From contig CAJNOF010000042.1 in NCBI GenBank assembly GCA_905250055.1, positions 365,805 to 429,804 on the forward strand: a DNA stretch of 64,000 bases. The letters are read 5' to 3'. Both the position numbers and the translations under genes were made by a program. The stretch comes from Rotaria sp. Lineage: Eukaryota. Every line of letters starts with the position of its first letter. Within the stretch, counting starts at the first letter, position 1. The notes under the pieces are model-generated. The model made no database searches. It had not been told where the DNA came from and saw nothing but the letters and a program-made list of their open reading frames with translations. Below, in pieces: positions 59,975 to 63,049 of the stretch.

Positions 59975-62900
59975 TCAAAAACGAGTAACTAGTGGTGGTG
60001 TTGGAAATGGGACTGATATTGGTGGTTTGAATTTTTCATCCAATAATTTTTTCTTTTCTTGATATTCAAGTATTGCCAATTGTTTCCAACTATCTATAAG
60101 TATTTGTGCACTGTATTCGATCTCTTCTTGATCTTTCATGGAATCGAGTAAGCCACGATGTCTACCCATGCACATAACAAGTATGATCACAACTTTGCTT
60201 GGTGAGCTGAGAACAGAGACAAGACTCGGCATTCCTTTCGCCAATCCCATTGAAAGGCCACATCCACCAAAAGCACTCATCACTTCGAATATCACACGGA
60301 GTACTGTAATAGTTGGATCATTAGGTGTCATACGAGGCGATTCAAAACTGCAAATAAGAAAGATAAAAATAAATAGCCATGCTCGAGTCGATATAAGAAG
60401 ACTGAAGAAACTGAGAATGACATGTCGACAGAAAATGATCAAAAAGAGTTTCATACGAAGTAGAGATATATGAATATTGCTTTGATTGAATTCTTCATTT
60501 CGATTTCTTATATAACCCAGATCAGCGGATACAATACTCAAACGATGTTGATTTCGTTTGTCATTCAGTTCCTCAAGAGCTGCTTCAACACGATTGAGAG
60601 AAATCGTTGAAGCAAAATATCTATTTGCTTGAGCTTTAGTAATCGAGCCTTTTCGCAAAAGATAATTTTGCATTCGATTAAATGGTAAGAAAACTTTAAA
60701 GTTGGCATTTTGGCTACCATTCGATACGTTATTTTCTAATGTTTGTTGCGTTTGCAAAAGAATCCATTCCATTTCAAAGGGCGTTTCATCAATTGCACAC
60801 AACTAAAAAGGAGAAAATGGTTATGTGTTATGTGTCGGAAAAAATTGTCGTGACACTTCGAAAGAATAAAAATGTCAATGCAACAGGGTAGTTTCAATCG
60901 TGAAAAAGAACGAAATTTTCGCCTTATTCATTAGTACTATCAGGTTAAGTTTAACCCATCTGAGTACAAAGATCTATGAAAAATGACCAACAACTATACG
61001 TTCCTCTGCTGAAGAGCGAACTTATTCGAAGCTAACAAAGAATACAATTCAATAGAAAAATATTGACAGGCAAATTAAGGGTTGTTACTAATGTCGGATT
61101 TATTTTTAACAATAACAACGATCATTTTTTATGTGTAGAATTCATTATTTTCGAATAGTTTTCAGATTGATACTATTTTCGTTACTGATTGTCATTAGTT
61201 TATAGAGCAACTTCAAGTAAAACTAAACCAAATTTAGTACAAAATCGTCCTTTTCCTATGGAAGATTATCATTTTTTTTAATAAAATTCTGTTAAAATGG
61301 TGTCAAATAGATAATAAGATCATATGAAAATTCTCTAATGATTTCGATCCGTAAAAGTTCAACTGTAATTCATAATCATATTTGACAAAAGAACAGTAAA
61401 CGTACCATTTGAGGCTTGATACCCATCAAGAGAATAAAAATAATCAAAGTTCCCGCAGAAAGTACGCTTATATCGATTGTTGCATAACCTTTCACAACAA
61501 AAACAAAAATAAGTGTACATTTTTCCACTAAAATATACTAATCACTCAGTACCTCCAAAACGAGTGTTCACTGTCTGAAGCATAAATATCATGAATCGTT
61601 GACCTTGGCTATATATCACCAATGCATCGTTATGAAAATCGTTCACCAAACACACTGCTACACCAACTGAAATAATGAAAAAAAACAATAAGTTAAACTA
61701 TTCGACAATATGATCACTGACGTATCTGTAACAAAACGGTAATAGTAACATAGAGTCGTGTTTGAACAGATGGATATATCACAGTAGATAGCCGATGATT
61801 ATTCAATAAGATATAATCAAAATAGATCTTATGTCGCCAACTGAAAATAGTAATATTTTAATTAGCTATTTTAAAATTTAATGTGAAGGAGGAATCAGTA
61901 AAAATACTTACGGTACCATATATTTGAGTAATTCGACAATTCCATGAAGAATGGCCGGAAATAAAGATGTACCAGACATGACAATAAGCATGATGATTAT
62001 GTTCATGAAGACATCCGTGACAAAACGTGACATACCGCCTTTCCTAGAAACACTTTTCTTTTATACAAAAGATCTGTCAACAAGTATAAATTTCTGACAA
62101 AAAAATTATTCAAACTCTATCACTTTTGAAACTATGTATATAGACACATAGAATAAAATATTAAATACGATACCATAGTGAAAGGCCATTTTGATTGAAA
62201 CCGGTCAGAGTGATGACAATTGAAGCATAGAACGGATCCACTGTTCTGTTGTCTTGACGTAAAAATTGTGGATCATAATGATATTTAAGCCACATACTAA
62301 TGGTAAGAAATGAGATAAGATAAATAGCGAAACAAGTCGAAAGAATGAGAATAATTAGGATGATATATGCTGTAGTACGAAGATCTTTTGGACTAGGCAG
62401 TAATCGAAGACGTTGGTCCAATATGGGATCAGTAGAATTGATTCGAACAAGTTTTGTAATTGGTAAGCTATTGTCATTGATAGTCGATGAAAGTGTTTCT
62501 TCATCAGGTGTTATTTCGCGTTTGACTCGATAAATCTTGATGAAAATAGCAGGAAGTGTACTGACCGTAATGCCTGTATGATAAACACACAGAAAAATCA
62601 TAGATGATCTGTTTTGATTAAAAGTTTCGTTTCTTTTCTATCATTTTTGTCCTATTACCTGAAATTACAGTAAAAATAAGTAATACAATTTGTGATGCTA
62701 GACTGTATGATCCAAAATCGTAAGTTTCCAATCCACATGTAAATACACATGTTGCACTCGAAAACCAACAATCGAGATAGGATACACGTTGTTGTTCAAT
62801 GTTCCAAATGATGACGCCGCACAAAAGTGTATTGCAGAAAAATACCGATAGATGTATGTAAAAATAATGTCGCATACGCCATTCATAATTATCCCAAAAT

Positions 62901-63049
62901 TTTCTCCATTTTGAACACCAAATGCCTAATGGAATGACGGCATCAGCAGTAGCATTGATCATATTGATCTCTGCTTGAACCATACTGCGTTCAGTTTCAG
63001 TCACAGATGTAACCGATGGTTTTCGATCAAAGCCGAAATTATTCATCAT
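59975..63049 (-). CDS. Trk/Ktr/HKT-superfamily cation (K+/Na+) transporter-like gene, at least 6 exons. Approximate exons: 62639-63049; 62161-62553 (ends before the stop at an internal donor around 62176); about 61905-62030; about 61560-61674; about 61406-61486; 59975-60802. Several boundaries are uncertain.
   Basis: Four M1-P-M2 units are recognisable. Unit A is ..YFYIHLSVFFCNTLLCGVIIW..LDCWFSSATCVFTCGLETYDFGSYSLASQIVLLIFTVISG|GITVSTLPAIFIKI (compare TrkH/HKT F.sVSA.TvTGL..vD...ls...Q.vl..LM.iGG.sgSTaGGiKv). Unit B is ..FYASIVITLTGFNQNGLSLW|KGGMSRFVTDVFMNIIIMLIVMSG... Unit C is ..QGQRFMIFMLQTVNTRFGG|YATIDISVLSAGTLIIFILLMGIKPQM. Unit D is ..VIFEVMSAFGGCGLSMGLAKGMPSLVSVLSSPSKVVIILVMCMGRHRGL (compare ..FEvvSAfgTvGLS.G....ls...K.vli..M..GR...l). 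The exon 3 to exon 4 junction could not be resolved with canonical GT..AG. Confidence 0.6.

What the first reader, a model, noticed from the sequence alone, without database searches (positions are those of the whole stretch)
59975..63049. Multi-exon Trk/Ktr/HKT-superfamily cation transporter in an animal genome
Four M1-P-M2 repeats with the selectivity-filter-like motifs (TCGLET, TLTGFNQ, NTRFGGYAT, SAFGGCGLSMG) and the M2d 'K/R' helix (..SKVVIILVMCMGRHRGL) are all visible in hand translation. This superfamily is typical of bacteria, fungi (TRK1/2) and plants (HKT) and is, to my knowledge, not part of the standard metazoan gene set. Here the gene carries at least five spliceosomal introns and sits beside bona fide animal genes (DGK convergent, 1 kb away). 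That would make it an old, domesticated acquisition rather than contamination. Substitutions in the filter glycines (S/T/C-G-L, NTRFGG, GGCG) could hint at Na+ versus K+ selectivity.
Basis: partly seen in the sequence, partly recalled or inferred. Interest (0 to 1): 0.7.

Follow-up and report, generated by a model that had tools for sequence, protein, structure and literature searches.

The report
Acquired potassium transporter gene in rotifer
This is an intact seven-exon gene for a Trk-type potassium transporter in a bdelloid rotifer (Rotaria sp. 'Silwood-1'); these animals are known for borrowing foreign genes, and this one most likely came from an amoeba-like microbe before bdelloids diversified.

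Summary
Window 59975-63049 (minus strand) holds a clean seven-exon, six-intron gene. All introns are GT-AG, and the product is 688 aa. It matches Pfam TrkH (E 4.5e-31) and has eight hydrophobic helices and four pore loops. All four filter glycines and the GRHRG helix are intact.

The host is the bdelloid rotifer Rotaria sp. 'Silwood-1'. The public annotation of that species splits this gene into two fragments.

The gene is not contamination:
- It lies 1.07 kb from a convergent diacylglycerol kinase gene on a 1.5-Mb scaffold.
- Rotaria sp. 'Silwood-2' has the same gene pair.
- An Adineta steineri homologue has the same exon lengths and phases.
- dN/dS against the Silwood-2 copy is 0.17.

Homologues occur in Adineta, Rotaria and Didymodactylos as several old paralogue lineages. 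No other animal appeared in the hit lists.

In distance trees the bdelloid proteins form one clade (100% bootstrap). They group with the Trk proteins of heterolobosean amoebae (Naegleria, Acrasis, Percolomonas) and unnamed environmental eukaryotes (85-99%), not with fungal TRK, plant HKT or bacterial TrkH/KtrB.

Its hint of filter-glycine substitutions is not. Bdelloid gene borrowing is well known, so this is a new member of a known kind. Transport function and ion selectivity are inferred, not shown.

The parts
62659..63049 (-). Exon 1 (391 nt): start codon, helix M1A, pore loop A (TCGLET, 62723-62740) and helix M2A
   Evidence: Spliced model. A TGA lies just upstream of the ATG and the donor is GTAATA. 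The same exon is present in L001, L002, L008 and L009.
62174..62573 (-). Exon 2 (400 nt): A-B cytosolic loop, helix M1B and pore loop B (FNQNGL, 62182-62199)
   Evidence: AG acceptor and GTATCG donor.
61912..62043 (-). Exon 3 (132 nt): helix M2B (IIIMLIVMSGTSLFPAILH)
   Evidence: Same length as the corresponding A. steineri exon.
61722..61840 (-). Exon 4 (119 nt): the conserved WRHKIYFDYILLNNHRLST stretch and the start of helix M1C.
   Evidence: AG acceptor and GTCAGT donor.
61553..61666 (-). Exon 5 (114 nt): helix M1C and the first part of pore loop C (NTRFG-)
61406..61488 (-). Exon 6 (83 nt): the rest of pore loop C (-GYATID) and helix M2C
59975..60802 (-). Exon 7 (828 nt including the stop): about 110-aa C-D cytosolic loop, helix M1D, pore loop D (GGCGLS, 60251-60268), helix M2D with GRHRGL (60149-60166) and the SMKDQEEIEY tail
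55960..58901 (+). Convergent neighbour, a diacylglycerol kinase gene. It is not part of the transporter but is the linkage evidence.
   Evidence: Pfam DAGK_cat and DAGK_acc. 99% identical to the Rotaria sp. Silwood1 protein P0249. The same TrkH-DAGK pair occurs in Rotaria sp. Silwood2.

Best explanation
The locus is a functional gene of the bdelloid rotifer Rotaria sp. 'Silwood-1'. It encodes a eukaryotic TRK-type member of the Trk/Ktr/HKT superfamily.

Structure (shown): one 688-aa chain carries four M1-pore loop-M2 repeats. In solved relatives these repeats surround a single pore. Each pore loop here keeps its filter glycine, and the last helix keeps the conserved GRHRG arginines.

Function (inferred): it most likely mediates K+ uptake driven by membrane potential, possibly with some Na+. 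Like fungal and protist TRKs, it probably needs no bacterial-type RCK (TrkA/KtrA) regulatory ring.

Origin (supported by trees): the family entered the bdelloid lineage once, by horizontal transfer from a microbial eukaryote whose TRK resembles those of today's heterolobosean amoebae. This happened before Adineta, Rotaria and Didymodactylos diverged. The family then duplicated into several paralogue lineages, took on the host's base composition and gained introns independently in each lineage.

Physiological role (speculation): K+ acquisition in very dilute water, or ion recovery after rehydration.
For: Family membership:
- Pfam TrkH at 108 bits.
- Sequence hits to solved plant HKT (E 6e-14) and KtrB structures.
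- A predicted structure of the 65%-identical homologue P0001 matches only HKT, KtrB and TrkH chains at the top (TM-score on target 0.6-0.74).
- Eight hydrophobic helices with the pore loops between each pair.
- G-G-G-G filter and GRHRG motif.

Genuine host gene:
- 98.5-98.8% identical to two Rotaria sp. Silwood1 assemblies, one a 1.54-Mb scaffold.
- Intact ORF in all three copies.
- Rotaria sp. Silwood2 contig collinear over about 13 kb, with the same DGK neighbour.
- In A. vaga a paralogue lies on an 18-Mb chromosome between GPCR, RCC1 and RPS8e genes.
- GC3 is 0.30, against 0.29 for DGK.

Selection: dN/dS is 0.17 against the Silwood2 copy (dS 0.38, 86.6% aa identity, all splice sites kept).

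Age:
- Homologues in Adineta, Rotaria and Didymodactylos.
- Several paralogue subclades contain both Adineta and Rotaria.
- Six intron positions are shared by the Rotaria and Adineta members of this subfamily.
- The P0016-type paralogue has one intron, at a different position.

Origin:
- An exhaustive profile search puts Percolomonas, Acrasis and Naegleria first among named non-bdelloid hits. Amoebozoa, a streptophyte alga and fungi come later.
- Neighbour-joining bootstraps give bdelloid monophyly 200/200 and 300/300.
- Bdelloids plus the heterolobosean-containing clade get 169/200, 297/300 and 289/300.
- Identity of the window protein over aligned columns: Heterolobosea 27-31%, Amoebozoa 21-26%, fungus 20%, OsHKT2;2 21%, E. 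coli TrkH 15%.
- The extra residue and the SMKDQ motif after GRHRG are shared with Acrasis.
Against: - No transcript or protein evidence for this locus was available here.
- The public annotation of the species splits the gene into 118-aa and 267-aa models.
- Transport activity and ion selectivity are inferred from conserved residues only.
- The trees are distance-based, built on sequences 20-35% identical. No maximum-likelihood method was available.
- Only 30 of the 150 listed representative hits could be named.
- The closest sequences of all (P0073, P0072, P0082) come from unidentified organisms.
- Absence from other animals, especially monogonont rotifers, was not tested exhaustively.
- The residues next to the filter glycines are unusual: C-G-L in loops A and D, and F-G-G-Y in loop C. 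Their effect is unknown.
Confidence: 0.8

Rival explanations
1. Contamination or mis-assembly: the Trk gene belongs to a co-sequenced protist or fungus and was joined to rotifer DNA by the assembler.
For: The family is otherwise non-metazoan. The Silwood-1 assemblies derive partly from whole-genome-amplified single animals (PMC7943196).
Against: - The same Trk-DGK arrangement is found in three independent Silwood-1 sequences and in Silwood-2.
- Introns are short and AT-rich, 27% GC.
- GC3 equals that of the neighbour.
- Paralogues lie on chromosome-scale A. vaga scaffolds among animal-type genes.
- The bdelloid proteins form one exclusive clade.
Confidence: 0.01
2. Vertical inheritance: TRK was present in the ancestor of eukaryotes or opisthokonts, was retained only in bdelloids among animals and was lost everywhere else.
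For: TRK/HKT proteins are spread over fungi, Amoebozoa, Heterolobosea and plants, so an ancient eukaryotic origin of the family is plausible.
Against: - It needs many independent losses across Metazoa, including the sister rotifer groups.
- The bdelloid clade groups with Heterolobosea, not with the opisthokont (fungal) TRK represented by Orbilia.
- No other animal appears among the named hits.
Confidence: 0.07
3. The donor was a fungus, a plant/alga (HKT) or a bacterium (TrkH/KtrB), not a heterolobosean-like protist.
For: - The GRHRGL and SAFG.xGLS motifs also occur in fungal TRKs. SAFG.VGLS occurs in a 440-aa environmental protein that JGI names TrkH.
- The best solved-structure hits are plant HKTs. 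No fungal or protist TRK appeared among the solved-structure hits.
Against: - Identity to the fungal, HKT and bacterial sequences is 15-21%, against 27-37% for the heterolobosean-type clade.
- Bootstrap support for bdelloids plus that clade is 85-99%.
- The profile score ranking agrees.
Confidence: 0.07
4. The gene is functional but is not primarily a K+ uptake system. It could be a Na+-permeable channel or an anion-leak pathway, or it could have been recruited for another role.
For: - HKT and TRK relatives range from K+-selective to Na+-selective.
- Bdelloid-specific residues flank the filter glycines: invariant Cys before the loop A glycine and Phe in loop C.
Against: - All four filter glycines are kept. 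In plant HKTs this correlates with K+ permeability (established knowledge: Maser et al. 2002).
- The M2D arginines are invariant across the bdelloid proteins aligned.
Confidence: 0.15
5. A decaying pseudogene, which would explain the fragmented public annotation.
For: The public gene models cover only 385 of the 688 codons.
Against: - There is no stop codon or frameshift in four copies, and all twelve splice sites are conserved between the two species.
- dN/dS is 0.17.
- The fragmentation is explained by gene prediction that used RNA-seq from another species (PMC7943196).
Confidence: 0.02

Closest known systems
Eukaryotic TRK transporters of protists, here annotated in Naegleria lovaniensis, Acrasis kona ('low-affinity potassium transport protein') and Percolomonas cosmopolitus ('potassium transport protein')
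   Same: - Four M1-pore loop-M2 repeats in one chain of about 550-900 aa.
- G-G-G-G filter.
- The SA[FY]G..GL[ST].G pore loop D.
- GRHRG[FLM] in M2D, followed by the same one-residue-longer linker and, in Acrasis, SMKDQ.
- Highest profile scores and sister position in the trees.
   Different: - Only 27-31% identical.
- Bdelloid proteins have an invariant Cys before the loop A glycine, FNQNGL in loop B and RF[AGC]G[FY] in loop C.
- This subfamily carries six introns.
- None of these protist proteins has been characterised, as far as I could find.
Fungal TRK1/TRK2 (for example the Orbilia oligospora 'low affinity potassium transporter', P0067)
   Same: Same superfamily and architecture, and the same GRHRGLP-type M2D motif. 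From established knowledge, they work without an RCK partner and mediate plasma-membrane K+ uptake.
   Different: - About 20% identity over aligned columns, and a separate clade.
- Fungal proteins are usually longer. From memory, their large insert lies between repeats A and B; I did not test this.
- Here the large insert, about 110 aa, lies between M2C and M1D.
Plant HKT transporters (OsHKT2;2 8k69, OsHKT2;1 8k66, AtHKT1;1 8w9n)
   Same: - Closest solved structures by sequence (E 6e-14) and by fold.
- The four pore loops align residue for residue.
- The G-G-G-G pattern matches class II HKTs.
   Different: About 21% identity. HKTs fall in a different clade, near the streptophyte alga Chlorokybus. 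The window protein is not a member of the HKT subfamily.
Bacterial TrkH and KtrB (3pjz, 4j7c)
   Same: Same fold and Pfam family, and a conserved M2D arginine.
   Different: - 15-20% identity.
- From established knowledge, the bacterial proteins are gated by TrkA/KtrA RCK rings.
- No such partner is encoded next to the rotifer gene, and its closest relatives are eukaryotic.
Horizontally acquired genes of bdelloid rotifers as a class (Gladyshev 2008; Boschetti 2012, PMC3499245; Nowell 2024, PMC11258130)
   Same: - A non-metazoan family embedded among host genes.
- Introns gained after arrival.
- Composition ameliorated to the host.
- Conserved across bdelloid genera.
   Different: - The apparent donor is a eukaryote, whereas the well-known examples are bacterial or fungal.
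- The product is an ion transporter, not a metabolic or biosynthetic enzyme.
- I found no mention of this family in the text or held supplements of the papers searched.

Membership tests
Trk/Ktr/HKT superfamily (Pfam PF02386 TrkH; TC 2.A.38) | Significant match to the family profile above the curated threshold | tested here: met
   108.3 bits against a cut-off of 27, E 4.5e-31, in three stretches.
Trk/Ktr/HKT superfamily (Pfam PF02386 TrkH; TC 2.A.38) | Four M1-pore loop-M2 repeats in one polypeptide | tested here: met
   - Eight hydrophobic helices, with pore loops at about aa 104, 256, 382 and 592 between each pair.
- Alignment to OsHKT2;2 covers repeats A to D.
- The fold search returns only HKT, KtrB and TrkH at the top. 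The model is of the 65%-identical homologue and has a mean pLDDT of only 59.
Trk/Ktr/HKT superfamily (Pfam PF02386 TrkH; TC 2.A.38) | A conserved glycine (or serine in Na+-selective HKT1) in each of the four pore loops | tested here: met
   TCGL, NQNGL, RFGGY and GCGLS align with the filter glycines of HKT, protist and fungal TRKs and, for loops A to C, E. coli TrkH. Its C-terminal repeat did not align well. Three of the four are invariant in the mixed alignment A2 and the loop A glycine is nearly so.
Trk/Ktr/HKT superfamily (Pfam PF02386 TrkH; TC 2.A.38) | Conserved positively charged residue in the middle of M2D | tested here: met
   GRHRG at aa 626-630. G, H and the second R are invariant in alignments A1 and A2. 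The first R is invariant in A1 and conserved in at least 90% of A2.
Trk/Ktr/HKT superfamily (Pfam PF02386 TrkH; TC 2.A.38) | Monovalent cation (K+/Na+) transport activity | not testable with these tools
   Needs yeast or E. coli complementation, or electrophysiology.
Eukaryotic TRK subfamily (fungal/protist type) | Groups phylogenetically with eukaryotic TRKs, not with bacterial TrkH/KtrB or plant HKT | tested here: met
   Neighbour-joining trees rooted on E. coli TrkH. Bdelloids plus the heterolobosean-type clade get 85-99% bootstrap.
Eukaryotic TRK subfamily (fungal/protist type) | GRHRG[LF] motif in M2D and SA[YF]G.xGLS.G in pore loop D | tested here: met
   Shared with Naegleria, Acrasis, Percolomonas, Acytostelium, Mastigamoeba, Balamuthia and Orbilia. 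The bacterial-type sequence has GRVG instead.
Eukaryotic TRK subfamily (fungal/protist type) | Works without an RCK (TrkA/KtrA) regulatory subunit | not tested
   No RCK gene lies next to the locus; the neighbours are DGK and an FHA/zf-CCHH gene. The rest of the genome was not searched.
Plant HKT subfamily | Falls within the HKT clade | tested here: not met
   OsHKT2;2 falls near Chlorokybus, away from the bdelloid clade. Identity is 21%.
Horizontally acquired bdelloid gene | No orthologue in other Metazoa | tested here: inconclusive
   Every named animal hit is a bdelloid. None of the 30 named representatives is an animal. Most hits are unnamed, however, and monogonont genomes could not be searched directly.
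Horizontally acquired bdelloid gene | Nested with, or sister to, non-metazoan sequences in a phylogeny | tested here: met
   These use distance methods only.
Horizontally acquired bdelloid gene | Physically linked to host genes, with introns and host-like composition | tested here: met

The most novel reading that the evidence does not exclude
Bdelloid rotifers are the only animals with Trk/HKT-type potassium transporters. They obtained the gene from a heterolobosean-like amoeba, which makes this a eukaryote-to-animal transfer, and expanded it into at least four or five conserved paralogue lineages. These work as real plasma-membrane K+ uptake systems and add a plant/fungus-style ion-uptake route to animal physiology. 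That route could help life in very dilute water and recovery from desiccation.
Probability: 0.35. Interest if true: 0.6.

Novelty: new member of a known kind. Interest (0 to 1): 0.42.

Why it matters
Animals are normally described as lacking Trk/Ktr/HKT transporters. The family is listed for plants, fungi, archaea and bacteria (PMC4714889). A conserved, expanded and selectively constrained TRK family in bdelloids would be a clear case of an animal adopting a microbial ion-uptake system, apparently from another eukaryote and not from a bacterium.

It gives a testable link between acquired genes and osmoregulation or desiccation biology. On the practical side, it shows that the public gene model for this locus in Rotaria sp. 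'Silwood-1' is broken and supplies a corrected 688-aa model.

The surprise is limited. Bdelloids are known to carry thousands of foreign genes, and homologues, including an A. vaga UniProt entry (B3G4R2) that I believe dates from about 2008, already sit in databases as uncharacterised proteins.

Tried and rejected
I used an alignment of 18 bdelloid homologues instead.
- A second word-indexed search with a mixed bdelloid, protist and fungal alignment returned almost only bdelloid proteins. It gave no named fungal, plant or bacterial sequences. Outgroups therefore came from E. coli K-12 trkH and from OsHKT2;2 residues copied from the PDB alignment.
- Biopython neighbour-joining bootstrapping timed out. 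I replaced it with a numpy implementation.
- AlphaFold on the 18-sequence alignment gave a mediocre model (pLDDT 59, pTM 0.54, pore loops below 50). I used it only for fold-level assignment.
- Literature searches for bdelloid together with TrkH, Trk, potassium transporter or HKT found nothing relevant. Gladyshev 2008 is not held. Boschetti 2012 and the held supplements of Nowell 2024 do not mention the family.
- I first considered that the 380-400-aa metagenome 'TrkH' hits might be bacterial donors. This was rejected. They lie on eukaryotic contigs (BROMI and CorA fragments) and begin exactly after the single intron of the P0016-type paralogue, so they are bdelloid exons called by prokaryotic gene finders.
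- Attempts to identify the organisms behind the closest environmental relatives gave only compact, intron-poor eukaryotic contexts.
- The filter-glycine substitution idea was checked and rejected.
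Full report
**What is in the sequence**

The region is read on the minus strand. The last one alone matches Pfam TrkH (E 1.1e-13).

Joining the ORF pieces at canonical splice sites gives seven exons:

| Exon | Window coordinates | Length (nt) |
|---|---|---|
| 1 | 63049-62659 | 391 |
| 2 | 62573-62174 | 400 |
| 3 | 62043-61912 | 132 |
| 4 | 61840-61722 | 119 |
| 5 | 61666-61553 | 114 |
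| 6 | 61488-61406 | 83 |
| 7 | 60802-59975 | 828 |

The six introns are 85, 130, 71, 55, 64 and 603 nt, all GT-AG. The CDS is 2,067 nt, stays in frame and encodes 688 aa. A TGA sits directly upstream of the start codon.

The spliced protein matches Pfam TrkH (PF02386) at 108 bits, E 4.5e-31, against a cut-off of 27.

Hydropathy finds eight transmembrane segments. The four pore-loop motifs lie between each pair: TCGL at aa 104, FNQNGL at 256, TRFGGY at 382 and GGCGLS at 592. GRHRGL is at aa 626 in the last helix.

There are six introns, not five. The filter glycine of loop B is the one in NQNGL, not the one in TLTGF.

**Whose genome it is**

All named homologues of the protein are from bdelloid rotifers: Adineta steineri, A. 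ricciae, A. vaga, several Rotaria species and Didymodactylos carnosus.

The neighbouring DGK ORF (57462-58901, plus strand) carries DAGK_cat and DAGK_acc domains. It is 99% identical to a Rotaria sp. Silwood1 protein.

Window 47.3-64 kb is 98.5-98.8% identical to two Silwood1 assemblies, one of them a 1.54-Mb scaffold. These assemblies come from Nowell et al. 2021 (PMC7943196). Their reported GC of about 31% fits the window's 32%.

In the public annotation this locus carries only two fragmentary TrkH models of 118 and 267 aa. Gene prediction for this species used RNA-seq from a different species, which explains the fragmentation. All three available copies have the intact 688-codon frame and differ by 3-6 residues.

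**Not contamination, and old**

- The Rotaria sp. Silwood2 contig CAJOBM010004575.1 is collinear with the window over the Trk gene, the convergent DGK gene and the next gene. DNA identity is about 80-87%.
- Its Trk copy keeps all seven exons and all splice sites. It is 86.6% identical in protein. dS is 0.38, dN is 0.064 and dN/dS is 0.17, which indicates purifying selection.
- The annotated A. steineri homologue P0001 (65% identity) has exons of 388/403/132/119/114/83/831 nt. These are the same positions and phases as in my model. That validates the model and dates these six introns to before the Adineta-Rotaria split.
- A divergent A. vaga paralogue (P0016) lies on an 18-Mb chromosome between a rhodopsin-type GPCR, an RCC1 gene and RPS8e. 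It has a single 49-nt intron at a different position. Introns were therefore gained separately in different paralogue lineages after the gene arrived.
- The gene's GC3 (0.30) matches that of DGK (0.29), and its introns are 27% GC.
- In the tree, several bdelloid subclades each contain both Adineta and Rotaria, and Didymodactylos also has copies. The family had therefore already diversified in early bdelloids.

**Where it came from**

I ran an exhaustive HMMER search of 1.84 billion representative proteins with a profile of 18 bdelloid proteins. It found 3,359 relatives.

I could name 30 of the best hits:
- The top named non-bdelloid hits are Heterolobosea: Percolomonas cosmopolitus, three Acrasis kona proteins and Naegleria lovaniensis.
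- Next come Amoebozoa: Acytostelium, Mastigamoeba ('putative trk1'), Cavenderia and Balamuthia.
- The streptophyte alga Chlorokybus also appears.
- One hit is labelled 'archaeon', on a 2.3-kb contig.
- Fungal TRK was represented by the Orbilia protein P0067, taken from the first homologue search.

Neighbour-joining trees rooted on E. coli TrkH (fetched) gave the following bootstrap support:

| Data set | Bdelloids one clade | Bdelloids + heterolobosean-type clade |
|---|---|---|
| 133 sequences, 440 columns | 200/200 | 169/200 |
| 72 sequences, L-INS-i, 455 columns | 300/300 | 297/300 |
| 72 sequences, L-INS-i, 513 columns | 300/300 | 289/300 |

In the first data set the immediate sister consisted only of members of that clade in nearly all of the 200 replicates.

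Identity of the window protein over aligned columns:

| Compared with | Identity |
|---|---|
| Unnamed environmental sequences (P0073, P0072, P0082) | 29-37% |
| Heterolobosea | 27-31% |
| Amoebozoa | 21-26% |
| OsHKT2;2 | 21% |
| Fungus (Orbilia) | 20% |
| E. coli TrkH | 15% |

A small shared feature supports the link. After GRHRG the bdelloid and heterolobosean proteins are one residue longer than amoebozoan and fungal ones, and Acrasis shares the following SMKDQ.

The closest environmental relatives sit on compact, intron-poor eukaryotic contigs. Their organisms are unknown.

The 380-400-aa 'metagenome TrkH' hits are not bacterial. They are second exons of P0016-type bdelloid genes picked up by prokaryotic gene callers.

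**How it probably works**

Shown:
- The architecture is four M1-pore loop-M2 repeats.
- The four filter glycines and the M2D arginines are intact. In the 18 bdelloid proteins aligned, the loop A, C and D glycines and the GRHRG residues are invariant, and the loop B glycine is kept in at least 90%.
- The closest solved structures are plant HKTs and bacterial KtrB. This holds by sequence (E 6e-14 and 1e-5) and by fold (TM-score on target 0.6-0.74 with a modest model).

Inferred from established knowledge of the family:
- A single chain forms one pore.
- The G-G-G-G pattern predicts K+ permeability, following the HKT glycine rule of Maser et al. 2002.
- As in fungal and protist TRKs, uptake would be driven by the membrane potential without a TrkA/KtrA ring.

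Speculative: a role in K+ acquisition from dilute water or in ion recovery on rehydration.

The effect of the bdelloid-specific residues beside the filter is unknown. These are an invariant Cys before the loop A glycine, Cys in loop D of this subfamily, and Phe in loop C.

**Comparison with what is known, and novelty**

The protein passes every testable defining feature of the Trk/Ktr/HKT superfamily and of its eukaryotic TRK branch. It is not an HKT in the phylogenetic sense.

The phenomenon, a foreign gene domesticated in a bdelloid, is well established (Boschetti 2012, PMC3499245; Nowell 2024, PMC11258130). Homologues already exist in databases as uncharacterised proteins, including A. vaga B3G4R2.

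I found no paper that mentions this family in rotifers. My literature access is incomplete, and Gladyshev 2008 was not readable.

I therefore rate it a new member of a known kind, of moderate interest. Three points go beyond routine annotation:
- the apparent eukaryotic (heterolobosean-like) donor;
- the expansion of the family and its lineage-specific intron gain;
- the corrected gene model for this locus.

**Limits**

- No expression data were available.
- Only distance-based trees could be built.
- Most database relatives are unnamed.
- Non-bdelloid animal genomes could not be searched directly.
- Ion selectivity is inferred from motifs only.

Noticed in passing
window 59975-63049; L008 14013-17086: The public annotation of Rotaria sp. 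Silwood1 (CAJNOP010000039.1 and CAJOBV010005012.1) splits this gene into two models of 118 aa and 267 aa. The full 688-codon frame is intact in both assemblies.
   Followed up: yes
window 53386-53832: This stretch of about 446 nt did not align to the otherwise 97-99% identical Silwood1 scaffolds. It may be an indel or a haplotype difference upstream of the DGK gene.
   Followed up: no
window 26186-28297 (-): A single uninterrupted 703-aa ORF has Peptidase_S9 and DPPIV_N domains and weak similarity to the bacterial Dpp5 model (148 bits, far below its cut-off). An intronless gene in an intron-rich neighbourhood could be another acquired gene.
   Followed up: partly
window 2911-3510 (-), 6009-6863 (-), 19112-19915 (-): These ORFs carry NAD:arginine ADP-ribosyltransferase (ART), Laminin_G_3 and NHL-repeat domains. 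The NHL ORF weakly resembles cyanobacterial ScyF/ScyE-type proteins.
   Followed up: partly
window 44000-54000: GC drops to 26-28% here, against about 32% for the window as a whole. By comparison with L008, the region includes an FHA/zf-CCHH (APLF-like) gene.
   Followed up: no
L005 8001-9149; P0048-P0064: Many 380-400-aa 'TrkH' proteins in metagenome and Logan collections start at MSGTSLFP. That is exactly after the single intron of the A. vaga P0016-type paralogue. They are bdelloid exons called by prokaryotic gene finders, one of them labelled 'Trk-type K+ transport system membrane component'.
   Followed up: yes
L010 (Logan SRR15674823), L011 (Logan SRR32315873), L007 (JGI 3300062347): The closest non-bdelloid relatives (29-37% identity) are intronless genes from unidentified organisms. 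Two of them lie on contigs with tightly packed neighbouring genes: L010 is about 42% GC, and L007 carries alpha-actinin, Spo11 and PLD. Finding these organisms from the run metadata could name the donor lineage.
   Followed up: partly
P0109 (RYY36391.1): A 773-aa TRK-type protein is labelled '[archaeon]' on a 2.3-kb contig. It clusters with unnamed, mostly long TRK-type sequences outside the bdelloid and heterolobosean-type clades, so it may be a mis-binned eukaryotic fragment.
   Followed up: no
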